Below, one piece after another: positions 22,307 to 39,388 of a stretch of DNA of 64,000 nucleotides. How positions within the stretch are numbered: position 1 is the first letter of the stretch; each line of letters starts with the position of its first letter. The translations under genes and the position numbers were made by a program. Origin of the DNA: Minisyncoccota bacterium (GTDB lineage: Bacteria; Patescibacteriota; Minisyncoccia; Phycocordibacterales; JACRKE01); the NCBI GenBank assembly GCA_041660505.1, contig JBAZWG010000001.1, positions 375,183-439,182 of the forward strand. Reading direction: 5' to 3'. Below the pieces are notes generated by a model that saw only the letters and a program-made list of their open reading frames with translations, made no database searches and was not told where the DNA came from.

Positions 22307-22312
22307 CCAGGA

Positions 22313-22822
22313 TTAATGCCGAAACCCAATCTGCGGTTTTGGGCTCTCCTCTTCTTCCAGAAAACGCTTGAGCGCTTCGAACACAACGCGGAAGTTTTTG
22401 TCATATTTGGCCTCCATCGCTTCGATCTTTTCTTTCAGCTCGCGATAGCTCATGAGCATTTCGCGAAGCTGGGTGAACGTGCGAATGATCTGGATGTTAA
22501 CTTGCACGGCCCTCTTGCTTTTGAGCACCGAGGATAGCATGGCAACTCCTTGCTCGGTGAATGCATAGGGCAGGTATTTTCTGTGCTGGCCTTGCCCTTT
22601 CTTTAAGGTCACAATTTGTGATCTTAGACGTTCGTCCTCAAACTTCGATATCTGAAACATAAAATCTGCGGGAAATCTCTCAGAATTTCGTTTAACCGCT
22701 TGAGTGAGAGCTCGTATTTCCACTCCATACAATGCCGCTAAGTCACGATCAAGCATTACTTTATGGCCACGAAGTACAAAGATAGTTCTAACAATTCTTT
22801 CCGTGGGAATAAGCTTGAGCAT
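22313..22822 (-). CDS. ORF6N-domain protein (phage/mobile-element associated DNA-binding family)
   Basis: MLKLIPTERIVRTIFVLRGHKVMLDRDLAALYGVEIRALTQAVKRNSERFP…AFTEQGVAMLSSVLKSKRAVQVNIQIIRTF matches the ORF6N/KilA-N-like pattern. Start at internal ATG, overlapping the ABC exporter stop with GGAG at -9. Confidence 0.7.
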   Translation of the reverse strand: MLKLIPTERIVRTIFVLRGHKVMLDRDLAALYGVEIRALTQAVKRNSERFPADFMFQISKFEDERLRSQIVTLKKGQGQHRKYLPYAFTEQGVAMLSSVLKSKRAVQVNIQIIRTFTQLREMLMSYRELKEKIEAMEAKYDKNFRVVFEALKRFLEEEESPKPQIGFRH

Positions 22823-22823
22823 G

Positions 22824-24635
22824 TTATTTTTTCTCCTCTTCCACCTCATCCGGAATAAATCCGCCGGCTTGGAGCTTCCAGAGTTTCTTATACAAGCCTT
22901 GGCGTTTGCGAGTGAGTGACTCATGCGTGCCGTCTTCTACTATTTTACCATCGTCCATCACGATTATTCTGTCCATTTTTCGGATGGTGGAGAGGCGGTG
23001 AGCTATCACTATCGTCGTGTGGCCCTTCATTAGTTTATCTAGTGCGTCTTGAATGAGCATTTCAGAATGTGAGTCTAGTGATGACGTCGCTTCATCAAGC
23101 ACGAGTATCGGTGCGTTCTTCAACATCGCTCGGGCGATAGCCACGCGCTGGCGCTCCCCACCAGAGAGCTTGATACCGCGCTCACCCACAAAGGTGTCAT
23201 AACCGTCTGGTAATGCCGAAATAAATTCGTGGCAATGCGCCATCTTGGCCGCTTCATAAACTTCCTCATCGGTCGCATTCTGCTTGCCGTATCTGATATT
23301 CTCCATAAGTGTGCGGTGGAAGAGTATCGGGTCTTGCGGCACGAGGCTCACCGCGTTGCGCAGACTGTCTTGAGTCACTTTCTCGATATTCTGTCCGTCT
23401 ATCAAAATTTCTCCGCTTGTGACGTTGTAGAATCTAAAGAGTAATTTAACGAGAGTAGACTTCCCCGCTCCTGAAGGCCCGACGAGTGCCACCCTCTCCC
23501 CGGGCTTTATGGTGATATTAATATGGTCGAGCACCGATCGATTCTCGTGATAAAAGAAGACGGTGTCATTAAACTCTATTTTACCTTCATGTACTTTGAG
23601 ACCTTTCGCGTGAGGTGCGTCTTTTATCTCATGCGGTGTGTTGAGTATCCCCACCATTTCTTGAGCATCGGCGATAGAGTGATACGTCGCACGGATAGCT
23701 CGGCCGAAATTCCAGGTGTTATTGGTTACGCGCTGGAAATATGTTTGGGCCAGAATAAATGTGCCGATCGTAATAGAGCCGGTCTGCCAATATTTGATGC
23801 CATAGTAGAAAAGGAAGAATTCTATAATAAGAATCAGCCCTGATTGTACGGCCTCAATAACAGAGTCGATGTTCCAAGTAAAACGTGAAATATTGCACCA
23901 AGACTGATTGATTTTCTTAAACAAACCGAGCTCGAACAACGAACCGGAGAAGCTCTGGATAGTAGTATGGTTGGTGATAGCGTCGGCGAGCGATGCTGTG
24001 ACCTCCGAATCTTTTGCTGATTTCTCGGTATCGTATTTTATTTTTAAGAATGACGCCGAGAGTTGCATCAGCATTATGGCGAGAACACCTATACCGACCA
24101 CCGAGGCGAGCACCGTGTTGAAGTACCAGATACCGGTAAGCGTGCCGACTATCTGGATAAAGAGAGACAGGAAATCCCAAACTATGCGGTCGCCTACGTT
24201 GTCGTAAGAGTTGGCATAACGGTTAACTCTCTGTACCAACGACCCGGCAAAGTTGTCTGAGAAAAATCCGTAAGAGTGGTGCATTAAATACTCGAAGGCT
24301 TCATTACGCAAGTCGCGCATGACCCCGGATTGGAAATATACTTGGAGAAAGGTCGCTGTGCGCCAACCGAGCCAAGAAATAAGGTTTAGCCCCAATATAG
24401 TGAACACGATAGCCATGAGCTGTCCGACAAGATTCGGTTCCGATACCGATTTAGTTAGCAAATCAACAAACTCCTTGTAATACAGCACTATTACGAGGTT
24501 CACGATGTACGCTATTGTTGAAGCGGTGACTATACCCAGAGCCCACCATTTGCGTCGCATCGTCGCGCGCCAGTATCGGCTCAAAACCTGCCGGACGGTT
24601 GCTGTCGGCTTTTTATTTTTATCCGATTTTTCCAT
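22824..24635 (-). CDS. ABC transporter, fused permease/ATP-binding exporter (MsbA-like)
   Basis: 6-TM N-domain plus Walker A GPSGAGKST, signature LSGGERQRVAIARAML, Walker B ILVLDEATS. Confidence 0.9.
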   Translation of the reverse strand: MEKSDKNKKPTATVRQVLSRYWRATMRRKWWALGIVTASTIAYIVNLVIVLYYKEFVDLLTKSVSEPNLVGQLMAIVFTILGLNLISWLGWRTATFLQVYFQSGVMRDLRNEAFEYLMHHSYGFFSDNFAGSLVQRVNRYANSYDNVGDRIVWDFLSLFIQIVGTLTGIWYFNTVLASVVGIGVLAIMLMQLSASFLKIKYDTEKSAKDSEVTASLADAITNHTTIQSFSGSLFELGLFKKINQSWCNISRFTWNIDSVIEAVQSGLILIIEFFLFYYGIKYWQTGSITIGTFILAQTYFQRVTNNTWNFGRAIRATYHSIADAQEMVGILNTPHEIKDAPHAKGLKVHEGKIEFNDTVFFYHENRSVLDHINITIKPGERVALVGPSGAGKSTLVKLLFRFYNVTSGEILIDGQNIEKVTQDSLRNAVSLVPQDPILFHRTLMENIRYGKQNATDEEVYEAAKMAHCHEFISALPDGYDTFVGERGIKLSGGERQRVAIARAMLKNAPILVLDEATSSLDSHSEMLIQDALDKLMKGHTTIVIAHRLSTIRKMDRIIVMDDGKIVEDGTHESLTRKRQGLYKKLWKLQAGGFIPDEVEEEKK

Positions 24636-24657
24636 CGGAATATTATACTACGAAATT

Positions 24658-25530
24658 CTATCTCTCGTCACGTTCGTTATCGAAGATGAAAAGTAGTTTT
24701 TCTACTTCTGATTGTTCATTACCGGAGAGGGCTGTCGATTTTCGTGTAACATACGCCGCCAGGTCGTCTATGTGCGCGGAGGTAAATACTTCCAGCCCAT
24801 CTTTGTTATCAATAAGTTCATCTATGAGTCTGTGTTCAAATTTTTGTGCCGCTACTAAAATTTGTGCCAATTCAGGCGCTCTCGTTATCGGCCCGCGCAG
24901 GCGCACAATACGGATAATCTCGCAGAATGCCGCCGCCATCTCCCCCGCGCAATAGTATCTATCGTATGATTTGCGCTTCGTCCAGCGCACGATCTCTCTG
25001 AATGCTTTTTCTATTTCATCTTTTGTCACCGGTATCCGTTCCTTAGTCTCCAAGGGAGGCAGGTTGGGGAATCTGGTGTGCGCATGGGAGCGCGAGCCGG
25101 ACTCGGATGCTGCTATTCTTACAACATCCAGATCAGCGGTTAGTGGCTTTTTATATTGCGCTTGAATATTCGCGTATGAAACTAGGGGCGGAGTGATAGC
25201 GTTCTCCTCGACTTCCCGCCGACTAGGAGGTCCGCCAGTGAGGCGGGAGCTATCCCAGAGCAGGGCGAGCGCCACCATATGCTTGCACACTTCCCCACCC
25301 ACATACGGGCAATCACAAAGGTGCATCAGCTTGCCGGCGACGAATTGCAATTTAACTTTATAAGGCTTGGAGCCGAGAGCTAGACCATCAGCCTTGGTAT
25401 CAGAATATTCACGCAAGCGAACAGACCCCTTCTCAATACACGACTCCCCGCGGAGCCACACCTCTTCATAGGTAATCGGTAACAACATGTGGGCAACTGA
25501 TTTGGAGCTCATGTGGCTAGTATAGTACAC
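24658..25530 (-). CDS. SWIM zinc-finger domain protein
   Basis: CxCx(n)CxH motif (LCDCPYVGGEVCKHMVALAL) typical of SWIM. 290 aa. Confidence 0.65.
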   Translation of the reverse strand: MYYTSHMSSKSVAHMLLPITYEEVWLRGESCIEKGSVRLREYSDTKADGLALGSKPYKVKLQFVAGKLMHLCDCPYVGGEVCKHMVALALLWDSSRLTGGPPSRREVEENAITPPLVSYANIQAQYKKPLTADLDVVRIAASESGSRSHAHTRFPNLPPLETKERIPVTKDEIEKAFREIVRWTKRKSYDRYYCAGEMAAAFCEIIRIVRLRGPITRAPELAQILVAAQKFEHRLIDELIDNKDGLEVFTSAHIDDLAAYVTRKSTALSGNEQSEVEKLLFIFDNERDER

Positions 25531-25560
25531 TGTATTTACTTATCAACTTAATAGAAAAAT

Positions 25561-26841
25561 ATGATTGAAGGATTCAGTAAGTGGCTAGCGGGGTTAACCG
25601 TAGCGGCCAGCGCGCCATTCACAGCACAAGTATCACAGCCTTTAATGCCGCCGCCCACAGACGGTACGCTCCCCCCGCCGATGAATGAGCCCTTGCCTCC
25701 TAGGGATTCAACAGATGGTGGCGCCTTTATGCCGAACTCTCCCGACGGCGGGCAAAACTTCCAAATGCAACAGCCATTCCAAGGAACACAACAGTTCCAA
25801 CCAATGCAACCAGATCAATCTTTTCAACCTTCCCAGCCGAGACAGCCGATGATGCCTCAAGGTGGCTTCGATGACAGGTCCGGGAATCAAGGATTCCCCG
25901 GTGAACAATTTAATAATCAAGGCGGGCAAGGAGGACAAGGAGGAAATGAACGACAGATGCAGCCAAATCGACCTAAACCCAATATGGCACAAGCCTTCAA
26001 AGGCCCGGAGCAGATGATCAAACAGATGGAGACCAAAATAAAGAGCCTAAAAGCGAAGAATGTCTCCATCCCTGCCAACATCGAGCAGACAATATCGGAA
26101 GTTAAAGTTCTTATTGCTTCAGCAAAGGAGAGTTCTTCTAATGAAGATTCGGATCCGAGTGATGCAATGTCTGATGTTCAAGATAAAATGCAGGATCTGC
26201 AAGATGTGTTCCCTCAATTACAGATGCTCGGCGAGTGGCCAAGAATAGAGAAGCAAGCGACCAAACAGCTCGCCATGATGAAGAAGGAATTCGAACGCTC
26301 CAAGAAACAGGCGCTTAAGTCAAAAATCGACGTGAGCTCGATAGTGGCCAGAGTGGAGACGAGCTTAGCGGAAATAGAAAAGAGTATAGCCGACGCCAAG
26401 GCACAGGCCTCTGCGGGGAATATCGAGGATGCCATGGATTCCCTCCGCGATAGCGTCTTCGAAGCTTCCGATGATTTGCGTGACCAGTTCAGAATACTCG
26501 AGAGTATGGGTAATGTTGGCAGAATTTATACTCGCATATCTAAGGATATCGCTTCGTTCGAGAAGGAGGTGAAAAGATTGGCGAAGCAAAAAGATCCGGA
26601 GACCGGCGAGCTTCGCGACGTCAGCAAGCTTAATGAGCTTGTTGTGGAAGCCAAGAATTTCGTCGCCGATATTAAATCCAAGATAGATTCCAAGGCGGAG
26701 CCAGAAGAGATCTTCGATGCCTTGTCAGATGGCGAATCGCTCCAGAATGATATTATGGAAGAAATGTCGCACGTAAAGGGCCAAGACACCGCCATCGACA
26801 AGATGTTCAATCCGGCCTCCGGTTCACAGGGTAAGTTCTAG
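25561..26841 (+). CDS. Secreted Pro/Gln-rich coiled-coil hypothetical protein
   Basis: Signal peptide, P/Q-rich low complexity, C-terminal coiled coil. 426 aa. Confidence 0.55.
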   Translation: MIEGFSKWLAGLTVAASAPFTAQVSQPLMPPPTDGTLPPPMNEPLPPRDSTDGGAFMPNSPDGGQNFQMQQPFQGTQQFQPMQPDQSFQPSQPRQPMMPQGGFDDRSGNQGFPGEQFNNQGGQGGQGGNERQMQPNRPKPNMAQAFKGPEQMIKQMETKIKSLKAKNVSIPANIEQTISEVKVLIASAKESSSNEDSDPSDAMSDVQDKMQDLQDVFPQLQMLGEWPRIEKQATKQLAMMKKEFERSKKQALKSKIDVSSIVARVETSLAEIEKSIADAKAQASAGNIEDAMDSLRDSVFEASDDLRDQFRILESMGNVGRIYTRISKDIASFEKEVKRLAKQKDPETGELRDVSKLNELVVEAKNFVADIKSKIDSKAEPEEIFDALSDGESLQNDIMEEMSHVKGQDTAIDKMFNPASGSQGKF

Positions 26842-26862
26842 ATAATCAATACTTGAACGACA

Positions 26863-26899
26863 AAAAACCGTTCCGGCAAAGTGCCGGAACGGTTTTTTA
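26863..26899. terminator. Bidirectional intrinsic terminator
   Basis: aaaaaa-ccgttccggc-aaagt-gccggaacgg-tttttt. Confidence 0.75.
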
Positions 26900-27078
26900 A
26901 TGTCTTATGTTTATTCTAACGCGCGAAAATCAGCTACGCAACCTCGACAGAACGCTTGCGGACAAGCTTATGCGCAATGCCTTCTATCATCTCCAGCATG
27001 CGCTGTTTTAGAACCTCATTTTCAGAGTTCACCAAGCCCTCTTGCATGTGTTCTTGTGCCATACGTATGCTTTAATAA

Positions 27079-27324
27079 TTAGTTTTTATTGTCTTGTATA
27101 AGCTTCTCCCACTCTTTGTCCTCCTCGGCCTGATACTGCGCCACCTTTTTCTCCAAAAGCTGTGAAAATTCAACCACATCGGAATACGGGAGCTTGGTCA
27201 GCACGTCTTTCATGAGTTCTAGCTCGCTCTGATTCAAGAAATCGAGCGCCTCCATCCACAATTTCTTGTAGTTTTCCGAAAGCGGGCTGCCTCCGATTAA
27301 TTTTTCTACATCTTGTCGCAACAT
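27079..27324 (-). CDS. Small hypothetical protein
   Basis: 81 aa ORF, helical/acidic composition. Confidence 0.4.
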   Translation of the reverse strand: MLRQDVEKLIGGSPLSENYKKLWMEALDFLNQSELELMKDVLTKLPYSDVVEFSQLLEKKVAQYQAEEDKEWEKLIQDNKN

Positions 27325-27411
27325 GATTGTGAATTGTACGCGCCTAAAAATAAATACGCAAGGAAGTTACTCACAAAATGACAGTCCAGCACACGACCGC
27401 AGAACAATCAA

Positions 27412-27490
27412 CCTCACCCCTCCCCCTCTCCGAAAGAGAGGGGTTAAGAAATTCGTTCCCTCCCCTTCGGGGAGGGCTAGGGTGAGGTGG
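27412..27490. repeat. Family-2 nested palindromic element (full form), intergenic
   Basis: Outer IR cctcaccc/gggtgagg enclosing two hairpins ccccctctcc-gaaa-gagagggg and ccctcccc-ttcg-gggaggg. Confidence 0.75.
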
Positions 27491-27492
27491 TC

Positions 27493-28071
27493 TTACAATC
27501 TTTTCTTCGTCTGTCGAACGATAAGCTGTTCGATAAACACAAAGGCGAAGATAGCGATGAGGAAAATATAGCCCGCATTGCGCAGATACTGCTCGCCATC
27601 AGGTAGCCACGAGCCGGCACCGTAGCCTAATCCACCCACGATCAGCATCCAGACGAAGGTGGCGATGATATCGGCACGGAGCAATTCCGGATATGGTATC
27701 TTGAGCGATCCGGCGCGGAGGAGAATCGCATGGTGAAAGCCGTAAGCGAATTTAGAGAAGAAAATAGTATGAAAAGGACGCTCTTTAATATGATTATCAA
27801 AAGGGTGGGTCACCTTGCTCACCCATTTATTAAGCCTGTTGCCGGTCGCGTTGCGAATCCCCTTGCCGAATGAGTACCACACCGCATCGCCGAAGAGCAT
27901 GCAGATGAAGACGGTCATCGCCAAGTTGCCGAGATCGAGATAGCCCAAGCTTGCCACAAAGGCAGCGGTAAAGAGCACGATATCGCCCTCTACAAACATC
28001 CCCACACCCACAATAAAGTAAGCGATAGCCGGCGAAAGAGTAAGATATTGTAATAAAGTCAGATCACCCAT
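27493..28071 (-). CDS. DedA/VTT-family membrane protein
   Basis: 192 aa multi-TM protein with the FVEGD…DedA signature region. Confidence 0.75.
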   Translation of the reverse strand: MGDLTLLQYLTLSPAIAYFIVGVGMFVEGDIVLFTAAFVASLGYLDLGNLAMTVFICMLFGDAVWYSFGKGIRNATGNRLNKWVSKVTHPFDNHIKERPFHTIFFSKFAYGFHHAILLRAGSLKIPYPELLRADIIATFVWMLIVGGLGYGAGSWLPDGEQYLRNAGYIFLIAIFAFVFIEQLIVRQTKKRL

Positions 28072-28136
28072 AAGACACCCCTATTGTACCGCGTTTAGAA
28101 GCAAAAAGAGAAGCTTTCTGTCCACAGAGCGCACCC

Positions 28137-28176
28137 GAAGCTCGGCGTCTGGGAGTGCGACGCCGAGCTTCTTTTG
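28137..28176 (+). terminator. Terminator-like hairpin with no annotated upstream + strand gene
   Basis: gaagctcggcgtc-tgggagtgc-gacgccgagcttc followed by ttttgg. Possibly the 3' end of a small RNA. Confidence 0.4.
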
Positions 28177-28339
28177 GCGCGAACGAGACATATTCTTTCA
28201 TGAGAGAAGGAAAGTAAACCCCACCGCAACCTCCGTTGGTAAACGGCAGGGCGAGGAGAGAGCCCCGACTCGGCAGTACCGGTCGGGATAAATTCCTTCT
28301 CTCGTGAAAAGGCGCGTCGTGGAAAGGTGAGCGCGGGAA

Positions 28340-28375
28340 AAGGTTGAACCTTTTGAATCCCTAAGGTTCAACCTT
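28340..28375. repeat. Family-3 paired palindrome element (AAGGTTSAACCTT-N10-AAGGTTSAACCTT)
   Basis: aaggttgaacctt-ttgaatccct-aaggttcaacctt; same architecture at four other sites. Confidence 0.75.
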
Positions 28376-28789
28376 GAGGAGCGCTTTCTTTATCCAAGAC
28401 CCGCCCATGCATAGAAACTTCATTTTGAACCCGCGACAGAATGTCGTGAACTCAAAAATGGGGGCGAGCAGAAGATGTGCGGTCTTCGTACTCGCCCGAG
28501 TGCCCCGTAACGTGGTGCCTCCGGTTGATTTTCTCGCGCGTGTCGCGCATTGGTAAATCAACGTAAAACAATTAACTGAATTTTAAGAAGTTTCAGTAAA
28601 CTCTCGAGCAACTAACGTGTGCTCTGGTCTAAACGCTCTCTTGAATATGCATTACCCATGCACGCCTCAAGATGAGAAGGGTTTCCCGGGGCCTTTCGGC
28701 CACCAAACCGTTTTTAATTACGATTCGGCACTTCGACGACTGCTCACTTTCCGTGAGTTTGTCGCCGGACTCGCCAAGGAAAGGCGAGT

Positions 28790-29098
28790 TTATTCTCGCT
28801 CTTTTGCCACGAAGGTCCCGTCCTTTTGGACGTGAACTTCGTAAGAGTAACCCCCTTCAGGGTTACCCCGCTGGGTCGCATAACCCAGCTCAAAAGAGAA
28901 CGCCTGACCCAGGACATCGTACAACTCCCGGGTCAGACGTCGAACATCCTCCAGCTTCGAACCAGAGGACATTCCTACGCCGTTCTCTCCGACTTTATAT
29001 CGGGAGAGAACCTCACTCAGCTTTTCGGCCTGAGCTTCCGAAATTGAGTGGTGGACGTCTGTCCACCATTCAATTTCTATATCGTAGTCTGTCGACAT
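28790..29098 (-). CDS. Small hypothetical protein (GC-rich island)
   Basis: 102 aa ORF preceded by the perfect extended SD gaaaggaggtgaatcgagATG. Confidence 0.55.
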   Translation of the reverse strand: MSTDYDIEIEWWTDVHHSISEAQAEKLSEVLSRYKVGENGVGMSSGSKLEDVRRLTRELYDVLGQAFSFELGYATQRGNPEGGYSYEVHVQKDGTFVAKERE

Positions 29099-29403
29099 CT
29101 CGATTCACCTCCTTTCTGCCGATTTTTGCCCTGACCGCCGTCATGGCGAGTCAAGTCGGGCGCGGAGTCTCGGCACCGCAGTGATTGCTCACTAATAAAC
29201 CCGCAATCTTTCGGTTACGAACTTATTAGTGAGGGTGTCCAGCAAGATTGTGCAATCTTGCTGGACACCCTGATGAGCTGGATTTCCGCCAGCTCGCCGG
29301 CGGCAAGGTCTTCCTCTGTGCGAGAGGCAGGTTCTTGCGTCCCTGGCCGTTTATAAATCAAAACGACAAAAACTTTAGAAGCATAAACCTCCATTTCTGC
29401 AGG

Positions 29404-29438
29404 CAAGGTCTCTCCTCCAAGCGGGAGGTGAGTCCTTG
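29404..29438. repeat. Family-1 palindromic element (compact hairpin form), non-coding
   Basis: aaggtctctcctcc-aagcg-ggaggtgagtcctt. Confidence 0.75.
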
Positions 29439-29594
29439 CCTACCATTTGCTCCTACCACGCCGGAGCGTTAAGCGGTTTTGTGTAGGCACTCGCCCATGC
29501 GGATGGCTACCGCATTTCCCTGTGGTCTCGCTCGCGCATTACTGCGGAGTTCCCCACTCACCTCCGGGAACGAAGGGGGCTCACCAGCCAGGTC

Positions 29595-30017
29595 TCAACG
29601 TGCGCACATCGCGCACTTGCCCTGGTAGCCTGTGAGGTGGTGGTCGGGGCAATAAATATTGCCATACTCCGACCCGCACCCACAGCTCGGGCTGTCATGA
29701 GACCAGCCGGTGGGGAGCTTCTGCCCGCTCGACCTGCCGCCTGCCGCTTTTTCATCAGCGGTTTCGACGTGGTCGAGGACGTGAGCAGGAAGCTCCACCT
29801 CCTCGAGGCTCGCGCGCTCGAAAGCACGTCGGCAATCCTCTTCCGAACAGCGGAAGTAGGTGCTGACGCTCTTCTTGAGCTCGGCCGTCTTCAGAGACAG
29901 CGCGAGCTTGAGCGCCGCCAAGGTCTTGAACACCTCGGCGTGCGTAGCCTCGAAGCTCTTGAGCGCGGCCGTTGCTTCGGCCACCTCGCCCAAGAGCTCT
30001 TCGATTTTCTTCATCAT
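29595..30017 (-). CDS. Hypothetical protein with C-terminal Cys/His cluster (GC-rich island)
   Basis: 140 aa ORF, SD aaaggaggtgaatgATG, C-terminus CGCGSEYGNIYCPDHH…CAMC. Confidence 0.55.
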   Translation of the reverse strand: MMKKIEELLGEVAEATAALKSFEATHAEVFKTLAALKLALSLKTAELKKSVSTYFRCSEEDCRRAFERASLEEVELPAHVLDHVETADEKAAGGRSSGQKLPTGWSHDSPSCGCGSEYGNIYCPDHHLTGYQGKCAMCAR

Positions 30018-30131
30018 TCACCTCCTTTCGTGAAGATGCCATTTTTTCGGAACTAACGTGTCCGGGGCTCTGAACGCCTTTCTTTTTTCGATCGCGAAAA
30101 GAAAAGTAAAAAACGATCGGACGTTGCGGCC

Positions 30132-30779
30132 CTACCTCGTGGGGGTGGTCATCCTCACGAGGTAGTCGAGGTACTCCTCCGCCTTTGCGAGGCGAACGAG
30201 CACCTCTGCCCTACCGTTCACCCAGTCGACCCTTGCGGGCTCCTGGGTGAGTCGGTAGAGCACCCAGACGTCCCCGTCAAAGAGGATGGCCGCGGGGTTG
30301 AGCTTCTGCTCCAACCCCCGGATCCGCTCCTCGATCCGGAAGACGCGGCGCCGGAGCGCTTCGCCTTCCCGAATGGCTACCGCCTGTTCGGCGGTGAAGC
30401 GCGGGGGCAGGGCAATGCCCCACACCCGTGCCTCTGCCTCCAGGCGGCGCGCCTCGCGGAGGTAATCCACGAGGGCGCCGCCCTGGACCTCCAGCGGCTC
30501 CTGCTCCCCCGTTTGGGGGTTCAGAATCCGCTGGAACCGGCTGTCGACCCGGCGGCAGTCCCGGTAGTAATACCGGGACTGCCACCCAGGGTGGGCGAGG
30601 TCTAGATACCCTCGCCCCGGGTCAGCGGCCAGGAGCGCCGACGTCCTGGCCGTGAGGAGGATGAAGAGCTGCCGGAGCAACCCCTCATACCTCCTCGGGA
30701 TCCGCCTTTCGGCGCGTTTGCGCGCCAGCGGATCGTTCACGTCGATGGGATTCATAGTACCCATCCTTTCCAAGAGCAC
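30132..30779 (-). CDS. Hypothetical protein (GC-rich island)
   Basis: 215 aa ORF (GTG at 30779, or ATG at 30755 with a partial SD). GC-rich codon usage distinct from the flanks. Confidence 0.45.
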   Translation of the reverse strand: MLLERMGTMNPIDVNDPLARKRAERRIPRRYEGLLRQLFILLTARTSALLAADPGRGYLDLAHPGWQSRYYYRDCRRVDSRFQRILNPQTGEQEPLEVQGGALVDYLREARRLEAEARVWGIALPPRFTAEQAVAIREGEALRRRVFRIEERIRGLEQKLNPAAILFDGDVWVLYRLTQEPARVDWVNGRAEVLVRLAKAEEYLDYLVRMTTPTR

Positions 30780-31333
30780 GTTGCTCCTGAATTTAATCGC
30801 GAAAAAATAATTTTGATTCGTGTGTAAATTCAGAAGCCCTTCAGCTTTTTTGCGGAAAGCGGAAGGGTTCGTGCGAATTATGATATGTGTGCCGTATCAA
30901 AATTCTAATTGTGCCCAATCAGACGCCTGCATATCCGGGACTTTGGATGCTGGGGCAGGCCGCCGACTTGCCGGGGTAGATCGACCCGGCAGCGGCCGGG
31001 GAGTTTCCTGCGCGTTGGGCGCAGGTCTTCTCCCAGTAACTGGCCACGACCTCCTTGGTCGTGGCGATGGCCAATTTGACTTGATAGTCCAATATCCTTT
31101 TATCGAATAAATTTTCTGGTTTCATATATTTGTTATTTATTATTCTAATTCTTCCTTGTTCTCACCACAAGTTTTACTTGCGATGAGAATCAGGAGGAGG
31201 AGCGAGGATACTGTGCAGTATTTCGCTCCCCTCGTGAGTGCTTGTCCCCGTGCAGGGGACCTTTTTTGTGCTCGTTTCTTTTTTCCGAAAAAAGAAACGA
31301 TGCCGAAAGAAAAACTATTTAAGTTTGCGGGGG

Positions 31334-31666
31334 TTAGGCCCGCTTCAGCCCCTTGCAGCCGACGGGCTGGCCGTCGGCGCCCCTGACCAAGTCGCCCGGG
31401 GCGAACACGTCGCCCCGCCCGGCGACTGTCGGGTGAGCGGCCACCAGGCCGCTCACCACGTAACCCACCCCCTCCTCGGGGGCCGGGAGGCCAGTCACCT
31501 CCCCGTAGGAGGCACGGCAGGTGGGGAAGCCTGCCACCTCCTTGTCCGCCACGAAGGTGGCGGCGGTCCGGGCAACCTGCCCGGACGGGTCGATGGACCC
31601 GACCTGGGCGTTCCCGCCCAGGTCTAAAATGTTGATCCGGTGCGGGGTGAGGTTGACGAGACGCAT
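31334..31666 (-). CDS. Hypothetical protein (GC-rich island)
   Basis: 110 aa from MRLVNLTPHRINI…, SD ggaggaaagg 9 nt upstream of ATG. Confidence 0.5.
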   Translation of the reverse strand: MRLVNLTPHRINILDLGGNAQVGSIDPSGQVARTAATFVADKEVAGFPTCRASYGEVTGLPAPEEGVGYVVSGLVAAHPTVAGRGDVFAPGDLVRGADGQPVGCKGLKRA

Positions 31667-31838
31667 AATGCGTCCTTTCCTCCGATTTATGCCTCGGAGC
31701 ACGGCTTTGGATTCAAGACCACGTTGGGCCCTGAAATTTTCACTCGAATTTTCAAGTGGAAATTTCAGGGTAAAGGATATTTATAAGAACATTCTTCCGT
31801 GAACGTTTTCCTCACGACTAAAAACACAAGGTCGGTGT

Positions 31839-31903
31839 CCGAGGTCTCACCTCTGGCCTGTCTGCTTATTGCAGACTTGGGTTGGCCTGAGGAGAGACCT
31901 CGG
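31839..31903. repeat. Family-1 palindromic element (long-loop form), non-coding
   Basis: ccgaggtctcacctc-(35 nt)-gaggagagacctcgg. Confidence 0.75.
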
Positions 31904-32660
31904 ACGCGCAAACATTTTGCGTTCTTGGTCGTGAGGCTGAACATATGTTCAGCCTCCTTCTTTCCCTGTCGAACAACGCCTTGGCTATTTGCCTCGGACT
32001 TACTCGCTCGCAGGGTATTCTGTTGTCAAATAACCCGGTCGTTCTGTTGCATGCTATTACCCATACAACTTCAGATTCTCTTCGTTACTCCCCGCCTGCC
32101 ATCGCCTGAAGCTCAGGCTTTGGCGGGCAGGTCTCCTCAAAAGTTCTCTCCTCTTTTGGATTAACGATGCCGTTTGGTTCTCTCCTCACTTCTATCAGTG
32201 AGTGTCGGGGACGGAAGTTGGATGTCCTTCTGTCCCGACGCACTCATTGCTAGCGCATATACTGAATGTATCATTGCCTCCGCTTCTCTCTTTCTTAACC
32301 CTACTTGCCGGTTAGGGCGACCGTCCGGGGCTTTGGTATTGGCATACCTCGCCTTGTCCGGATCAGAGTTGAACGGTGTTACATTCTGTCGTATATGACC
32401 CTTGCGGGATTTTTGTAAAGACCTAATGCTTCCCTCTCCTCCTTGTCCGCCGGTGAGGCGGGTTATCTTATATAGAGAGAAGATTGTGTCCGACTTGCTG
32501 TCCGCTCCAATCTTCTATCTGTATTTTTTAACTGGCATAATCATACGCTAGCCTTGCCAGATTGTCAATACTATGTGATAGTTTATGGCATTTAGCGTCA
32601 TAAAGCCTTGATATTAGCCAAAATAGTGGCTTTATTGTGTTATCAGAGTGTCAAACTGTA

Positions 32661-32689
32661 TTGACAAGTAAAAGTCAAGATGATAGTAT
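32661..32689 (+). promoter_or_regulatory. Consensus sigma70-type promoter for TrmB-like gene 32759, with TGTCAA/TTGACA palindromes
   Basis: TTGACA-17 nt-TAGTAT. Upstream gtgtcaaactgtattgacaag and attgtcaatac inverted repeats overlap the -35. Confidence 0.6.
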
Positions 32690-32693
32690 GGCC

Positions 32694-32754
32694 GAGGAGA
32701 GACCTCTGGCTTGCCGTCTTATCGCCGGCTTTAATCAGCCCGAGGACTCACCTC
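32694..32754. repeat. Family-1 palindromic element forming the 5' UTR of the TrmB-like gene
   Basis: gaggagagacctc-(35 nt)-gaggactcacctc, starting ~5 nt after the -10 and ending 4 nt before the ATG. Confidence 0.75.
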
Positions 32755-32758
32755 ATCT

Positions 32759-36142: not shown

Positions 36143-36583
36143 CTAGCAGATATCAATGTCCTCTAGGATGCGGACGCGGCCTACATGCGCCTCCCTATCC
36201 ACTTCTACTGTTACCACGTCTAATTGCCAATCAGGCTCTTCGTCTTCGTCGTCTGGATATTTAGATAGTAAATAGACTTCTATCGTTCTGCGTAGCCTCT
36301 TGAGCTTCCAGGGGTGCACGTTCTCTTCGGCTTCATAGTCTTCGTCGTCTGGATCCGAGGAGAGACCTCCGCCTTTGCCGGAGGACTCTCCTCGGATTTT
36401 GTCGGCCGTCACCGATTTTACTTCGACAAAGTGCAAATTGCCGTCTTTTAGCGCGATAATGTCAATTTCACCATATTTCTTGCGGTAATTACGCTCTATT
36501 ACTGTATATCCATGGCGCTCCAGATAGGTCGTGGCGCAGTTCTCCCCTATTTGGCCGATAACTTGCTTGTCGGTTTGAGCCAT
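36143..36583 (-). CDS. yraN: YraN-family (UPF0102) endonuclease with in-frame family-1 element
   Basis: GENCATTYLERHGYTVIERNYR…GEIDIIALKDGNLHFVEVKS…. Insert encodes GESSGKGGGLSS. Confidence 0.8.
   Translation of the reverse strand: MAQTDKQVIGQIGENCATTYLERHGYTVIERNYRKKYGEIDIIALKDGNLHFVEVKSVTADKIRGESSGKGGGLSSDPDDEDYEAEENVHPWKLKRLRRTIEVYLLSKYPDDEDEEPDWQLDVVTVEVDREAHVGRVRILEDIDIC
36356..36395. repeat. Family-1 palindromic element in-frame inside yraN
   Basis: cgaggagagacctcc-gcctttgcc-ggaggactctcctcgg; near reverse-complement identical to the pcrA copy. Confidence 0.85.
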
Positions 36584-37021: not shown

Positions 37022-39388
37022 TTGATGAGGCCCGGGCCGAAACCAAAGATATACATTTCTACTGAGTGGTCTAGCAACCTCGCTTATGCAGTTGGTCTTA
37101 TCACTGCTGATGGCTGTCTGTCAAAGGATGGCCGCCATATTGACTTTACATCAAAAGACCCAGATCAAATAGAAACCTTTATCAGGTGCCTCGGACTTCA
37201 CTCACTTGTTAGACCAAAGAAATCCGGTGCTGGAAGGTTTGCATTTCGAACCCAGTTTGGGAATGTATCGTTTTACAGATTTCTATTAGGCATTGGACTA
37301 ACGCCCGCAAAATCGAAAACTATTTCGAAACTTGAAATTCCCGACGAATATTTCTGGGATTTCATGCGTGGATATTTCGATGGTGACGGCACGAGCTTTT
37401 CGTATTTTGATCCGGTATTTCCTAAAAGCTATCGTTTTTATGTTGCTTTCGCTTCGGCAAGTGAGCCATATCTACTTTGGCTACAAGAGAAGGCATATAG
37501 GTCCGCAGGGTTAAAAGGCTACATTAACAGAGGCGTTAACCCTTCAAGCCTACAACTCAAGTATGCGAAGAAAGAAGCAATAGTCTTATGTCAAAAAATG
37601 TATTATGATGATAGCGCTCCCAGACTCCAAAGAAAATACGAGAAAATCTTGGATTCGATGAGCATTATTAACAGCAAACGCCGGGGTGGTGAAATTGGTA
37701 TACACGCAGCGTTCAGAACGCTGTGGGGGCAACCCCATGGAGGTTCAAGTCCTCTCTCCGGCACTTTTAACTCATTTCACGTGAAAAATAAGAAAGAATC
37801 TCCAGCTTACTATATCCCCTCCCATGTTCTGGGGGTTGTAACTACTTTACAAAAGGCCGGCTTCGAGGCATATCTCGTCGGTGGCTGTGTGCGCGATATA
37901 TTGATGGAGAACAAGCCAAAAGACTGGGATGTTACGACAAACGCCCGCCCGGAGCAGATCCAAGCCCTATTTAACGAGACTTTCTATGAAAACGAGTATG
38001 GCACGGTCGGCGTCGTGGTAGAAGACCTTTCACGTGAAAAGCTCAATATCGTTTCACAAGAAACGTTTGATGAGCTTTCACGTGAAAGCATGGAAGCCTT
38101 AGAGGTCGAACCTCGGGCTCCCAGAGGTTCGACCTCGGGCGCAGACCCAAGCCCGAAAGAGGTGATCGAGGTTACACCTTATAGGCTAGAAACCAAGTAT
38201 TCCAACTTTCGCCATCCGGACGCTGTCACCTTTAGCACCAGTCTGGGGGACGACCTGAAACGCCGGGATCTGACCATCAATGCCATCGCTTATGACCCCA
38301 ATAGCCCTAAAGGACAGTTTATAGACCCCTTTAACGGTCTAAAGGACATAAAGGACATGGTAATCCGCGCCGTAGGAGAGCCCTCGGACCGCTTCTGCGA
38401 GGATGCTTTGCGCATGATGCGTGCGGTGCGCCTGGCCGCCCAGCTCGGCTTTATGATTGACCCTGCGACCGAGCAAGCGATTGTTGCGAACAAGGCGCTT
38501 ATCACTAAGATAGCGGCCGAGCGTATCCATGACGAACTTATGAAGCTTTTAAATACCGAGTACGCGGTTGATGGCATTAGGTATCTAAAGATTACCGGCC
38601 TTCTTGAACTTATAATCCCTGAACTTCTTGAGGGGATAGGCATAGAGCAGAGAGGGGAGCATATCTATGACGTCTGGGAGCATAACCTCAAGTCGCTCGA
38701 ACACGCCGTCAAGAAGGGTTGGCCATTTCACGTGAGACTTGCAGTGCTGTTACACGACGTGGGCAAGCCGCGTACGCGCTTGCGCGATGAGGAGAGGCAA
38801 ATCTGGACATTCCATGGCCATGATGTGGTCGGTGGCAAGATGACCAAAAAGATACTTGAACGGCTCAAATTTTCACGTGAAATGATTGATAATATTTCTA
38901 AACTAGTGCGTTATCATCTTTTCTTCTCCGATACCGATAAAATCACGCTTTCTGCCGTACGCCGGATGATTCGCAACGTCGGCGCTGATTTGATATGGGA
39001 TTTAATGAAGGTGCGCCAGTGCGACAGAATAGGCACGGGCCGGCCCAAAGAAAGTCCTTATAGACTGCGCAAATACGAAGCGATGATAGAAGAGGCAATG
39101 CGCGATCCAATATCGGTGCAGATGTTAAAGATTGACGGCGCGAAGATAATGGAAATAGGGGAGATGGACCCCGGGCCGAAGATTGGCTGGGTGTTGCACG
39201 CCTTACTTGAGGAAGTACTAGAAGACCCGGCTAAGAATACGACAGAGTATCTGGAGACTCATACTAAAAAATTATTGGCACTTTCTGACAAGGAATTACA
39301 AGAACTCGGTGAAGCGGGAAAGGAGAAGAAGTCAGGGCTTGAAGAAGCGGCTATAGAAGAAATCAACAAGAGACACTACGTGAAGTAA
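37022..39388 (+). CDS. cca: CCA-adding enzyme (tRNA nucleotidyltransferase, HD domain) with an N-terminal LAGLIDADG homing-endonuclease-like domain and internal repeat-derived insert
   Basis: Residues ~1-210: two LAGLIDADG motifs (LAYAVGLITADGCL; FMRGYFDGDGTSF). Residues ~270-788: pol-beta nucleotidyltransferase (GGCVRDILM…DWDVTT), RRDLTINA, HD domain (LLHDVGKP). One continuous 788-aa ORF. Confidence 0.85.
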   Translation: MMRPGPKPKIYISTEWSSNLAYAVGLITADGCLSKDGRHIDFTSKDPDQIETFIRCLGLHSLVRPKKSGAGRFAFRTQFGNVSFYRFLLGIGLTPAKSKTISKLEIPDEYFWDFMRGYFDGDGTSFSYFDPVFPKSYRFYVAFASASEPYLLWLQEKAYRSAGLKGYINRGVNPSSLQLKYAKKEAIVLCQKMYYDDSAPRLQRKYEKILDSMSIINSKRRGGEIGIHAAFRTLWGQPHGGSSPLSGTFNSFHVKNKKESPAYYIPSHVLGVVTTLQKAGFEAYLVGGCVRDILMENKPKDWDVTTNARPEQIQALFNETFYENEYGTVGVVVEDLSREKLNIVSQETFDELSRESMEALEVEPRAPRGSTSGADPSPKEVIEVTPYRLETKYSNFRHPDAVTFSTSLGDDLKRRDLTINAIAYDPNSPKGQFIDPFNGLKDIKDMVIRAVGEPSDRFCEDALRMMRAVRLAAQLGFMIDPATEQAIVANKALITKIAAERIHDELMKLLNTEYAVDGIRYLKITGLLELIIPELLEGIGIEQRGEHIYDVWEHNLKSLEHAVKKGWPFHVRLAVLLHDVGKPRTRLRDEERQIWTFHGHDVVGGKMTKKILERLKFSREMIDNISKLVRYHLFFSDTDKITLSAVRRMIRNVGADLIWDLMKVRQCDRIGTGRPKESPYRLRKYEAMIEEAMRDPISVQMLKIDGAKIMEIGEMDPGPKIGWVLHALLEEVLEDPAKNTTEYLETHTKKLLALSDKELQELGEAGKEKKSGLEEAAIEEINKRHYVK
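37775..38902. repeat. Cluster of five TTTCACGTGAAA 12-bp palindromes inside the CCA gene
   Basis: Copies at 37775, 38028, 38076, 38726 (tttcacgtgaga) and 38891, in two different codon phases. Confidence 0.8.
38103..38140. repeat. Family-3 paired palindrome element, in-frame inside the CCA gene
   Basis: gaggtcgaacctcggg-ctccca-gaggttcgacctcggg, encoding LEVEPRAPRGSTSG. Confidence 0.7.

What the first reader, a model, noticed from the sequence alone, without database searches (positions are those of the whole stretch)
28080..32750. GC-rich island with extended-SD small ORFs, long hairpins and a shared upstream motif
Between the DedA gene and the third TrmB-like gene the composition shifts visibly toward G+C (by eye) and no conserved housekeeping gene is present. 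The small ORFs at 28790-29098, 29595-30017 and 31334-31666 carry near-perfect anti-16S Shine-Dalgarno sites (gaaaggaggtgaat…ATG), unlike most genes in the window. About 30 nt is repeated at 28609-28640 and 30049-30082 (aactaacgtgt…ctnaacgc). Read on the minus strand this gives gcgttYaga…acacgttagtt, 35-70 nt upstream of the minus-strand start codons at 28561 and 30017, and could be a promoter/operator. The same gcgtttaga string also appears on the + strand at 28089. The ~500-nt non-coding stretch 29100-29595 holds a perfect 20-bp palindrome (29231-29272) and an 11-bp-stem hairpin (29192-29240). It could be a foreign or phage-derived island or a cluster of structured RNAs. No integrase is adjacent
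Basis: partly seen in the sequence, partly recalled or inferred. Interest (0 to 1): 0.6.

Follow-up and report, generated by a model that had tools for sequence, protein, structure and literature searches.

The report
Foreign island encoding Crn4 ring nuclease
A roughly 4-kb piece of foreign, phage-type DNA in the chromosome of a tiny CPR (Paceibacterota) bacterium carries an intact gene for a Crn4-type ring nuclease, an enzyme family that destroys the cyclic-oligoadenylate alarm signals of bacterial immunity, together with orphan genes and an unusual density of hairpins.

Summary
GC reaches 0.58-0.71 at 29.0-31.7 kb against about 0.47 elsewhere. Genes B, C and E have GC3 of 0.77-0.90, against about 0.55 in host genes. 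A, B, C and E have strong Shine-Dalgarno sites, which 41 of 44 host genes lack. The repeated motif and the hairpins are real.

ORF E (31334-31666, minus strand) is a Crn4b-type ring nuclease. It matches PADLOC Unk_01 (E 5.7e-22) and PDB Crn4b. Its AlphaFold model has TM 0.75 to 9r7b, and the catalytic His and Arg are kept. The family is common in phages.

ORF D is a truncated gene remnant. This looks like cassette-type shuffling.

The whole island, and its two closest relatives, fold far better than shuffled controls (z about -4 to -6). Host-specific palindromic repeats have colonised it, so it is truly integrated.

Best reading: a decaying remnant of a mobile accessory-gene array with anti-defence cargo. 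This is a new member of a known kind. The pervasive structure is unexplained.

The parts
28137..28610 (.). Non-coding, extremely structured end of the island. It holds a 13-bp hairpin (28137-28171) and a 17-bp long-range stem (28196-28212 / 28293-28309). Blocks conserved with L086 lie at 28193-28213, 28293-28316 and 28400-28412. A host REP-like palindrome pair (28340-28375) is inserted relative to L086.
   Evidence: The 526-nt stretch 28085-28610 has MFE -220 kcal/mol, z -8.5 (minus strand) and -9.6 (plus strand). blastn and alignment with L086. Copies of the 28340-28375 element lie at 39410, 54960 and 59339. No Rfam match.
28610..28636 (-). Copy 1 of the 27-nt motif GCGTTYAGA-N7-ACACGTTAGTT (minus-strand reading).
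   Evidence: (family D9).
28790..29098 (-). ORF A, 102 aa, function unknown. It has a perfect SD site (GAAAGGAGGTGAAT), host-like GC3 (0.56) and an internal 16-17-bp hairpin at 29040-29077.
   Evidence: No family, phage or PDB match. Singleton cluster, NCBI WC764_02145.
29187..29441 (.). Hairpins in the 496-nt B-A spacer: a twin hairpin at 29187-29273, which includes the perfect 19-bp palindrome, and one copy of the host X/Y palindromic element at 29401-29441.
29595..30017 (-). ORF B, 140 aa (139 aa as annotated), function unknown. The N-terminal part is predicted helical and the C-terminus is rich in Cys/His. It has a perfect SD site and GC3 0.77.
   Evidence: No match in Pfam, PHROGs, NCBIfam, PADLOC, phages, IMG/VR or PDB.
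30050..30117 (-). Conserved intergenic module: an A/T-rich palindrome plus copy 2 of the 27-nt motif (30051-30077). The RBS-proximal ATCTTCACGAAAGGAGG follows.
   Evidence: 94% identical over 68 nt to L086 1740-1807, and to L087, while the flanking genes are unrelated.
30132..30755 (-). ORF C, 207 aa, a true ORFan with a strong high-GC coding signature (GC1/2/3 = 0.71/0.46/0.86). It has an SD site and internal hairpins at 30490-30535 and 30551-30586.
   Evidence: Only a self hit among 5.8 billion clusters and among 1.84 billion representatives by full HMMER. AF2 single-sequence model unusable, pLDDT 41.
30919..31125 (-). ORF D, 68 aa: a truncated N-terminal remnant of a 178-aa protein family. 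Homology is confined to nt 30960-31083.
   Evidence: 78% identity over 40 aa to residues 9-48 of P0066. DNA is 83% identical to L086 1214-1328, and the similarity stops there. No SD site.
31244..31300 (.). Terminator-like hairpins downstream of E: GTCCCCGTGCAGGGGAC followed by a T run on the + strand, and a 13-bp A/T-rich palindrome at 31272-31300.
31334..31666 (-). ORF E, 110 aa: a Crn4b-type ring nuclease homologue (NCBI WC764_02165). GC3 0.90.
   Evidence: PADLOC Unk_01 E 5.7e-22. PDB Crn4b 9r7b E 8.7e-10 and Crn4a 2.8e-6. AF2 pLDDT 97, and Foldseek TM 0.75 / rmsd 2.8 A to 9r7b, with only Crn4 entries significant. P8, H9 and R95 are invariant in 40 homologues.
31729..31957 (.). Structured region upstream of E: a 20-bp hairpin (31729-31770), then a compound 150-nt structure (31808-31957) built around an X/Y palindromic element (31837-31905) with a terminal hairpin (31933-31956).
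   Evidence: The 150-nt structure folds to -85 kcal/mol, z -9.6 to -10.9.
31958..32758 (.). ORF-free spacer of uncertain ownership, with normal GC and normal folding. It has near-consensus divergent promoter-like sites at 32568-32540 (minus strand, TTGACA-17-TATGAT) and 32661-32689 (plus strand, TTGACA-17-TAGTAT). An X/Y element (32689-32755) lies in the leader of the TrmB-like gene.

Best explanation
The core of the finding (about 28.13-31.96 kb) is a horizontally acquired, partly decayed fragment of a mobile, phage-type accessory-gene array. It sits between dedA and a TrmB-like regulator gene in a Candidatus Paceibacterota chromosome.

The array consists of small co-directional genes on the minus strand. 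Each has its own strong Shine-Dalgarno site. The genes are separated by spacers that carry hairpins and a conserved 27-nt motif, which may be a promoter or operator.

One gene, E, encodes an intact Crn4b-type ring nuclease. By homology, fold and active-site residues, it should cut cyclic tetra- and tri-adenylate into linear products. That would switch off effectors of type III CRISPR, and possibly of cA3-based CBASS. On a mobile element this is anti-defence cargo.

The other genes (A, B, C) are orphans of unknown function, and D is a truncated remnant.

Gene content is exchanged between related elements by recombination at the conserved intergenic modules. This is the logic of the promoter/stem-loop (PeSL) cassettes of T4-type phages.

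Shown: foreign composition and translation signals; the family, fold and catalytic residues of E; the truncation of D; module conservation with unrelated flanking genes; host repeats inside the island.

Inferred: enzymatic activity, the anti-defence role, promoter function of the motif, and recombination as the shuffling mechanism.
For: Foreignness:
- GC3 is 0.77-0.90 in B, C and E, against about 0.55 in the host.
- A, B, C and E are SD-led, while 41 of 44 host genes lack an SD site.
- Genes of the related contigs L086, L002 and L003 are SD-led too.
- E's GC3 is about 0.29 above the trend of 86 homologues against the GC of their surroundings.

Identity of E:
-.
- The family's properties come from PMC12830947: H15 and R112 are essential, Crn4b cleaves cA4 and cA3, and phage and plasmid orthologues were proposed as anti-CRISPRs.

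Mobile context:
- 22 phage records and at least 85 IMG/VR contigs carry homologues.
- The closest homologues (57-64% identity) lie in arrays of small genes with no known family.

Mosaicism:
- D matches the first quarter of P0066.
- The 68-nt module downstream of P0066 in L086 is 94% identical to the C-B spacer.
- The RBS and start of B match the start of another L086 gene.
- Blocks of the terminal non-coding element are shared.
- The genes in between are unrelated.

True integration:
- An independent Logan assembly is identical across the dedA junction.
- Two host-specific palindromic repeat families occur inside the island but not in L086, L002 or L003.
Against: - No integrase, tRNA target or flanking direct repeats were found, so the integration mechanism and exact borders are unknown.
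- No phage hallmark gene lies in the island or in L086, L002 or L003, so 'phage' as opposed to plasmid or another element is not shown.
- No sister genome was available to show an empty site. The only relative found is too distant (42% DedA identity).
- E is intact although D has decayed, which could mean the host now uses it.
- Residue R92 of Crn4a, which contacts the ligand, is Gly in E and in most of its clade. Substrate range may therefore differ.
- The 27-mer does not fit a sigma-70 spacing (my reading).
- High GC3 could be intrinsic to this element type, for example linked to selection for structure, rather than a mark of a high-GC donor.
Confidence: 0.65

Rival explanations
1. E is a host housekeeping ring nuclease, as cellular Crn4 is. 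It would reset a cOA-signalling defence (type III CRISPR, CBASS or a Panoptes-like system) encoded elsewhere in the 719-kb genome. The island would then be a domesticated defence-related locus rather than selfish cargo.
For: Cellular Crn4 proteins have this role (PMC12830947). E is intact with all catalytic residues while its neighbour D has decayed. Host repeats inside the island show that it has been resident for some time. A divergent promoter pair links the region to a TrmB-like regulator.
Against: The Pfam scans of the larger window ORFs gave no cas, CD-NTase, mCpol, CARF or SAVED hit, and the 64-kb window has no CRISPR-like array. Codon usage is not ameliorated (GC3 0.90). The closest relatives lie in small-gene arrays, not CRISPR loci.
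Confidence: 0.17
2. A, B, C and E together form a new defence or toxin-antitoxin-like system, in which E tunes a signal made or sensed by the orphan proteins.
For: The genes are co-directional and tightly grouped. A gives a weak PADLOC hit to a CARF-HEPN model (E 0.018). Ring nucleases usually sit next to cOA-dependent effectors (PMC12830947).
Against: None of 84 other loci that carry an E homologue has a homologue of A, B, C or D. C has no homologue anywhere. A has host-like composition while B, C and E do not, so the genes have different histories. The CARF hit is not significant.
Confidence: 0.06
3. The region is mainly a cluster of structured non-coding RNAs or ssDNA elements, and most ORFs other than E are incidental.
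For: Folding z-scores of -4 to -11 run across the whole island, coding parts included. Hairpin density is 3.1 per kb against 0.37 per kb outside. The gene-sense strand folds slightly better than the antisense strand. Long palindromes lie inside A and C. Relatives carry self-cleaving ribozymes.
Against: C and B show a textbook GC1/GC2/GC3 coding pattern and have SD sites. No Rfam family and no hammerhead core was found. There are too few homologous sequences to test covariation.
Confidence: 0.08
4. The island is an assembly chimera that joins a high-GC organism's DNA to a CPR contig.
For: The composition changes abruptly. The source is a metagenome-assembled genome.
Against: A second assembly (Logan SRR18595301) is 100% identical over 9.8 kb across the left junction. 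Host-specific X/Y and AAGGTTSAACCTT palindromes occur inside the island, at 28340, 29401 and 31837. The intergenic GC is host-like.
Confidence: 0.03

Closest known systems
Crn4 ring nucleases, subgroup Crn4b (Unk01; Chi et al. 2025, PMC12830947; PDB 9r7b)
   Same: E shows significant sequence and profile similarity and has the same novel beta-rich fold (TM 0.75). The Thr/His/Arg triad is conserved (T7, H9, R95). E has the small size typical of Crn4b, without the ~10-residue insertion of Crn4a. Relatives occur on phages.
   Different: E is only about 32% identical to Crn4b. It is not next to any type III CRISPR locus or effector. The Crn4a R92-equivalent ligand-stacking Arg is Gly. E lies in a CPR genome inside a compositionally foreign island. 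Its activity is untested.
AcrIII-1 (DUF1874) viral ring nuclease anti-CRISPR (as discussed in PMC12830947)
   Same: The proposed role is the same: a small enzyme carried by a mobile element that degrades cA4 and so disarms type III CRISPR effectors. The chemistry also relies on a histidine as general acid.
   Different: The fold and family are unrelated. AcrIII-1 is specific for cA4.
PeSL (promoter-early stem-loop) cassettes of the hyperplastic regions of T4-type phages (PMC2839356, PMC4122927)
   Same: Small orphan genes are separated by short conserved composite regulatory or stem-loop motifs. The conserved motif marks the junction between otherwise unrelated genes in related elements.
   Different: The sequences differ and there is no T4-type context. 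Promoter and terminator activity of the module is unproven. Here the structure also pervades the coding regions.
Ribozyme-associated gene neighbourhoods in bacteria and phages (review PMC6765202)
   Same: The closest crn4 relatives sit next to a hammerhead III (L002) and a twister-P1 (L003) candidate in intergenic spacers on the sense strand. This fits the suggested processing of polycistronic transcripts near phage genes.
   Different: No known ribozyme class is detectable in the window's island itself, or in L086.

Membership tests
Crn4 ring nuclease (Crn4b) | Significant sequence or profile similarity to Crn4/Unk01 | tested here: met
   PADLOC Unk_01 (PDLC01138) E 5.7e-22 over residues 1-108. 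phmmer against PDB: Crn4b 9r7b E 8.7e-10, Crn4a 9sma E 2.8e-6.
Crn4 ring nuclease (Crn4b) | The Crn4 fold (paired beta strands with an extended beta hairpin and one short helix), unrelated to other folds | tested here: met
   AF2 model built on 40 homologues has pLDDT 97. Foldseek against PDB gives 9r7b at E 3.7e-10, TM 0.75/0.73, rmsd 2.8 A. Only Crn4 entries are significant.
Crn4 ring nuclease (Crn4b) | Catalytic His (H15 in Crn4a, H17 in Crn4b) and Arg (R112 / R103), plus the conserved Thr (T13) | tested here: met
   The alignment to 9r7b places T7, H9 and R95 at these positions. P8, H9 and R95 are invariant in 40 homologues. Their roles are taken from PMC12830947.
Crn4 ring nuclease (Crn4b) | Crn4b rather than Crn4a: smaller, lacking the ~10-residue hairpin insertion | tested here: met
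   E is 110 aa. Its best sequence and structure match is Crn4b, while Crn4a aligns with gaps and rmsd 5.1 A.
Crn4 ring nuclease (Crn4b) | Ligand-contacting Ser-Arg pair (S91/R92 of Crn4a) | tested here: not met
   Ser is kept (S72), but the Arg is Gly in E and in most of its clade ('VSGLVA'). R92 was not shown to be essential.
Crn4 ring nuclease (Crn4b) | Location in a type III CRISPR locus or next to a cOA-activated effector (cellular members) | tested here: not met
   Pfam and PADLOC scans of window ORFs gave no cas, CARF, SAVED or cyclase hit, and no CRISPR-like array was found. This fits the phage- and plasmid-borne orthologues, which also lack such neighbours. The rest of the genome was not available.
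Crn4 ring nuclease (Crn4b) | Homodimer that cleaves cA4 and cA3 to linear products with 2',3'-cyclic phosphate ends | not testable with these tools
   Needs protein biochemistry.
Integrated prophage / classical genomic island | Adjacent integrase, tRNA or other att target, flanking direct repeats | tested here: not met
   There is no integrase within 8 kb. The recombinase at 40512-41435 is 65-82% identical (tblastx segments) to its counterpart in a distant relative, so I take it to be housekeeping. The nearest tRNAs are at 22.2 and 36.0 kb. No convincing flanking direct repeat was found.
Integrated prophage / classical genomic island | Composition and signals that deviate from the host | tested here: met
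PeSL-type mobile regulatory cassettes | A short conserved intergenic motif forms the junction between unrelated genes in related elements | tested here: met
   68 nt are 94% identical between the window and L086, with unrelated genes on both sides. The RBS block is also shared.
PeSL-type mobile regulatory cassettes | The motif is a nested early promoter plus terminator stem-loop in a T4-type phage | tested here: inconclusive
   The A/T-rich palindrome plus 27-mer is present, but the module as a whole does not fold better than shuffles (z -0.2). There is no sigma-70 spacing and no T4-type genes.
Known self-cleaving ribozymes (hammerhead, twister and others) | Match to the family covariance model, or a complete catalytic core | tested here: not met
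   Island: no match at E<=10 on three sub-regions and no CUGANGA...GAAA core. Relatives: L002 1203-1257 has a complete hammerhead III core (E 3.6e-6), and L003 3391-3455 matches twister-P1 (E 1.2e-10).
Integron gene-cassette array | IntI integrase and attC sites with complementary R''/R' cores between promoterless ORFs | tested here: not met
   No integrase is present. The ends of the 27-mer are not complementary. The genes carry their own SD sites and long spacers.

The most novel reading that the evidence does not exclude
The island, L086 and L002 belong to an undescribed class of mobile accessory-gene arrays, possibly of phages or plasmids of CPR bacteria in groundwater. Their sense transcripts would be selected for pervasive folding along their whole length, coding regions included. 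The spacers would carry processing elements: hammerhead or twister ribozymes in some members, and in this island the conserved, unclassified structured element at 28.19-28.41 kb and the long perfect hairpins. Such folding could shield the transcripts from RNA-guided (type III CRISPR) targeting or from RNases. That would complement the ring nuclease carried by the same arrays.
Probability: 0.2. Interest if true: 0.75.

Novelty: new member of a known kind. Interest (0 to 1): 0.5.

Why it matters
Crn4 was described only in late 2025, and its phage- and plasmid-borne relatives are still only presumed to be anti-CRISPRs. This locus places an intact Crn4b-type gene in a CPR (Paceibacterota) genome, on a clearly foreign island. 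A full-text search found no paper that mentions ring nucleases together with Patescibacteria.

It gives a concrete, testable case of cyclic-oligoadenylate counter-defence in this lineage and its mobile elements. It also links crn4 genes to small-gene arrays that carry self-cleaving ribozymes. The biological role of such ribozymes in bacteria is still open (PMC6765202). If the genome-scale excess of RNA structure in these arrays is selected, that would be a new feature of DNA mobile elements.

Tried and rejected
1. Known RNA families: nothing in the island beyond generic hairpin noise, using Rfam at gathering and E-value thresholds and on three sub-regions at E<=10, plus ARAGORN and a hammerhead-core regex.

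2. Function of A, B and C: nothing from Pfam, PHROGs, NCBIfam, PADLOC, PDB sequences, tblastn against phages, or IMG/VR scans. The AF2 model of C without an alignment was unusable (pLDDT 41), so no fold search was run on it.

3. I concatenated A+B+D into one query to save a capped search. It found the D relative but did not return even the self hits. It therefore cannot be used as evidence that A and B lack homologues.

4. I thought L003's 169-aa protein resembled P0066 by eye. BLASTP did not support this, so I dropped it.

5. Synteny and empty-site test: the DedA-based genome scan gave only one distant locus, with rearranged order and no island genes. This is not decisive.

6. Searches for the 27-mer and for the conserved non-coding blocks: nothing in IMG/VR. 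The single metagenome hit (L087) is the same element as L086.

7. The integron attC, retron, TnpB-omegaRNA and sigma-70 or ECF promoter readings of the motif or element were considered. None could be supported: there is no partner protein gene, and the spacing or complementarity does not fit.

8. GC alone as the cause of the low folding energies is rejected. crn4-bearing viral contigs of GC 0.61-0.66 have mean z about -1.

Full report
SOURCE AND CONTEXT. The window comes from a 719-kb contig of a Candidatus Paceibacterota (CPR) metagenome-assembled genome (source name; locus tags WC764_02145 to 02165). The surrounding genes are ordinary: RNase Y, alanine racemase, an EPSP-synthase-family enzyme, RmuC, UvrA/B/C/D, PNPase, an ABC transporter, DedA, three TrmB-like regulators, a CCA-adding enzyme and a tyrosine recombinase. 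A Logan assembly of run SRR18595301 gives a 9.8-kb contig that is 100% identical to window 22280-32120.

GC rises to 0.58-0.60 in 1-kb windows and to 0.70-0.71 in 300-nt windows, against 0.41-0.53 elsewhere. The excess lies in third codon positions of three minus-strand ORFs: B 0.77, C 0.86 and E 0.90. Eleven host genes have GC3 of 0.44-0.63, and ORF A is host-like at 0.56.

The 14-mer GAAAGGAGGTGAAT occurs exactly twice in 64 kb, in front of A and B. Computed anti-SD duplex energies are -9.5 to -16 kcal/mol for A, B, C and E. Only 3 of 44 host genes reach -12. Many host genes carry a TATAAT-like box a few bases before the ATG, which suggests leaderless or short-leader mRNAs.

The repeated motif is a 27-mer at 28610-28636 and 30051-30077, 21/27 identical. 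The perfect 19-bp palindrome and its neighbouring hairpin are real (-50.8 kcal/mol, z -10.6).

Three details do not hold, or hold only in part. The 'gene' starting at 28561 has neither codon periodicity nor an SD site. The plus-strand gcgtttaga is a 9-mer expected by chance.

WHAT THE GENES ARE. E (31334-31666, 110 aa) is a Crn4b-type ring nuclease.
- It matches the PADLOC model 'Unk_01, unknown small protein sometimes fused to CARF' at E 5.7e-22.
- It matches the PDB chains of Crn4b (9r7b, E 8.7e-10) and Crn4a.
- An AlphaFold model built on 40 homologues has pLDDT 97.
- That model superposes on 9r7b with TM 0.75 and rmsd 2.8 A. Only Crn4 entries are significant.

The paper that defined the family (PMC12830947) reports the following. 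Crn4 is a homodimer with a novel fold. H15 and R112 are essential and T13 is conserved. Crn4b cleaves cA4 and cA3. Phage and plasmid orthologues may act as anti-CRISPRs. In E these residues are T7, H9 and R95. P8, H9 and R95 are invariant in the alignment of 40 homologues. One difference is that the Arg corresponding to Crn4a R92, which stacks on an adenine, is Gly in E and in most of its clade.

The family is widespread on viruses, with 22 INPHARED records and at least 85 IMG/VR contigs.

C (207 aa) has an SD site and a textbook high-GC coding signature. It has no homologue in 5.8 billion clusters or, by exhaustive HMMER, in 1.84 billion representatives.

A and B match nothing in any library searched. 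My chimeric query was flawed, so I do not claim that they are orphans in the large protein database.

D (68 aa) is 78% identical over 40 residues to the N-terminus of a 178-aa protein (P0066) and then diverges. It is a truncated remnant.

RELATION TO OTHER ELEMENTS. P0066 lies on a 6-kb groundwater contig (L086; L087 is the same element) that carries co-directional, SD-led genes of no known family. DNA comparison shows five shared blocks:
- the 5' quarter of the P0066 gene (83% identity);
- the RBS and start of another L086 gene, which matches the RBS and start of B;
- two blocks that form the arms of a 17-bp long-range stem in the non-coding segment 28193-28316.

In the alignment a short 13-nt block, ATGCATGGGCGGG (window 28400-28412), is also shared.

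The genes between these blocks are unrelated. Relative to L086, 842 nt that contain C replace 411 nt of the P0066 gene, with one breakpoint inside that ORF and the other at the edge of the module.

This pattern, a conserved regulatory spacer joining unrelated small genes, is what was described for the PeSL cassettes of the hyperplastic regions of T4-type phages (PMC4122927). I use that as a functional analogy, not as membership.

The closest E homologues (57-64% identity; L002, L003 and the contig of P0010) also lie in arrays of small unknown genes with repeated spacer modules. None of 84 loci that carry an E homologue has a relative of A, B, C or D.

FOREIGN BUT TRULY INTEGRATED. Across 86 loci, the GC3 of crn4 homologues tracks the GC of the surroundings (r 0.72). 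E lies about 0.29 above that trend and looks like genes from contexts of GC 0.64-0.71.

The island also contains repeats that are specific to this host genome. One is a pair of AAGGTTSAACCTT palindromes (28340-28375), which is an insertion relative to L086 and has copies at 39410, 54960 and 59339. The others are two copies of an 'X/Y' palindromic element (29401-29441 and 31837-31905); a third (32689-32755) lies in the adjacent spacer. These families are absent from L086, L002, L003 and L005. Together with the second assembly, this argues against a chimera and for some residence time.

No integrase, tRNA target or flanking repeat was found. The only related genome locus retrievable (42% DedA identity) is too distant and rearranged for an empty-site test, although it lacks the island genes.

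PERVASIVE STRUCTURE (UNEXPLAINED). I folded 200-nt windows and compared them with dinucleotide shuffles.
- The 64-kb window has mean z -0.9.
- Twenty of the 31 windows below -3.5 lie in 28.2-32.0 kb, which is 6% of the sequence.
- These include coding parts of A, C and E, with z down to -11.
- Hairpins with stems of 11 bp or more occur at 3.1 per kb in the island and 0.37 per kb outside.
- The 526-nt non-coding end (28085-28610) folds to -220 kcal/mol, z about -9.
- L086 and L002 show the same property over their whole length (mean z -3.9 and -4.0). L003 shows it only in part.
- crn4-bearing viral contigs of similar or higher GC do not show it, nor does a CPR chromosomal locus (mean z -0.1 to -2.2).
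- In all three elements the gene-sense strand has the more negative z. The difference is about 0.8-0.9, with p 0.004-0.04 for each. The sense strand also has more G-U pairs.

This is modest but consistent evidence that the structure acts in the sense transcript. The z-scores rest on 16-30 shuffles per window and are approximate.

RIBOZYMES IN THE RELATIVES, NOT IN THE ISLAND. Rfam in E-value mode finds a twister-P1 match in L003 (3391-3455, E 1.2e-10), directly after the crn4 homologue. It also finds a hammerhead type III in L002 (1203-1257, E 3.6e-6), just before the crn4 homologue. The L002 sequence shows a complete core: GUC cleavage site, stem I, CUGAUGA, stem II, GAAA and stem III.

This fits the published notes that bacterial ribozymes cluster near each other, near certain genes and near phage genes, and that they may process polycistronic transcripts (PMC6765202). 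The island itself and L086 have no detectable member of any Rfam ribozyme class.

MECHANISM, WITH CONFIDENCE. The most likely reading (about 0.65) is as follows. A fragment of a mobile accessory-gene array was inserted between dedA and a TrmB-like gene and is decaying: D is truncated, the spacers are long and host repeats have invaded. Its genes are expressed from their own signals. E degrades cA4 and cA3 and so silences cOA-dependent effectors, which is an anti-defence function for the element that carried it.

The steps rank as follows.
- Shown: foreign composition and signals; E's family, fold and catalytic residues; D's truncation; module conservation with unrelated flanks; host repeats inside the island.
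- Inferred: enzymatic activity, biological role, promoter function of the 27-mer, and recombination at the modules.

The main rival (about 0.17) is that the host now uses E to reset a cOA system encoded outside the window. That cannot be judged without the rest of the genome.

VERDICT. The finding is real, and its 'foreign island' reading is right. Its content is a new member of a recently described family in an unusual host and context. The genome-scale folding and the conserved non-coding end remain unexplained and are the most novel aspect.

Noticed in passing
window 6052-6095, 19735-19810, 36352-36397, 40111-40154, 61370-61415 (plus 29401-29441, 31837-31905, 32689-32755): A dispersed palindromic element is built from two imperfectly complementary 11-mers, GAGGAGAGACC and GGACTCACCTC. 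The first has 17 hits against 0.8 expected in shuffles. Five copies lie inside intact ORFs (alanine racemase, UvrB, UPF0102/YraN, a 318-aa ORF and UvrD). In UvrB, the copy coincides with a 34-aa in-frame insertion (residues 332-365) relative to solved UvrB structures. This resembles the Rickettsia palindromic elements that insert into genes.
   Followed up: partly
window 28340-28375, 39410-39445, 54960-54995, 59339-59374 (related: 38102-38136, 212-236): A second host repeat is a pair of 13-nt palindromes, AAGGTT[C/G]AACCTT, 10 nt apart, forming a 36-nt hairpin. It lies mostly in intergenic spacers between genes. It may be a REP-like element, a terminator or an operator.
   Followed up: partly
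whole window, starts of 44 host ORFs: 41 of 44 host genes lack a strong Shine-Dalgarno site (anti-SD duplex weaker than -12 kcal/mol). Many have a TATAAT-like box within about 6-12 nt of the start codon. This suggests mostly leaderless or very-short-leader mRNAs in this Paceibacterota genome.
   Followed up: partly
L002 1203-1257 (+) and L003 3391-3455 (+): A hammerhead type III ribozyme with a complete core (E 3.6e-6), and a twister-P1 ribozyme candidate (E 1.2e-10). Both lie in intergenic spacers directly next to crn4-like genes in metagenomic small-gene arrays. Both score below Rfam's gathering thresholds.
   Followed up: partly
L003 3870-8370: Many copies of composite spacer modules lie between small unknown genes. 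They include CCCTTGAC-N~17-GTTAG promoter-like units, TAATGCCGGAATAA motifs and a 79-nt pre-gene leader repeated five times. A block at 1130-1450 holds AT-rich iteron-like repeats.
   Followed up: no
86 loci carrying crn4 homologues (L002-L090): crn4-like genes are systematically richer in GC than their surroundings, by about 0.09 on average. Part of this reflects their Gly/Ala/Pro/Arg/Val-rich composition. Their GC3 tracks the context GC (r 0.72). The window and L003 are the strongest upward outliers.
   Followed up: partly
window 31958-32540 (minus strand): An ORF-free, purine-rich stretch of about 580 nt lies downstream of the best promoter-like site in the region (TTGACA-17-TATGAT, 32568-32540). 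That site is divergent from the promoter of the TrmB-like gene. The stretch could be a long leader or a non-coding RNA running toward the island. There is no Rfam match.
   Followed up: no
window 28137-28176 and 31244-31268 (+ strand): Two hairpins followed by T runs read as intrinsic terminators on the plus strand, although no plus-strand gene lies upstream of either. They may be ends of antisense transcripts or bidirectional terminators.
   Followed up: no
window 37022-39388 (+): The CCA-adding / poly(A) polymerase-family gene encodes 788 aa and has a LAGLIDADG-like domain hit at its N-terminus (residues 20-88). This suggests a fused or inserted homing-endonuclease-type module.
   Followed up: no
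L090 634-10354: A 53%-identical crn4 homologue lies on a 16-kb contig with a TrmB-like regulator, a HEPN/nucleotidyltransferase pair and a DEAD-box helicase. This looks like a chromosomal context rather than a phage one, but it is not syntenic with the window.
   Followed up: partly
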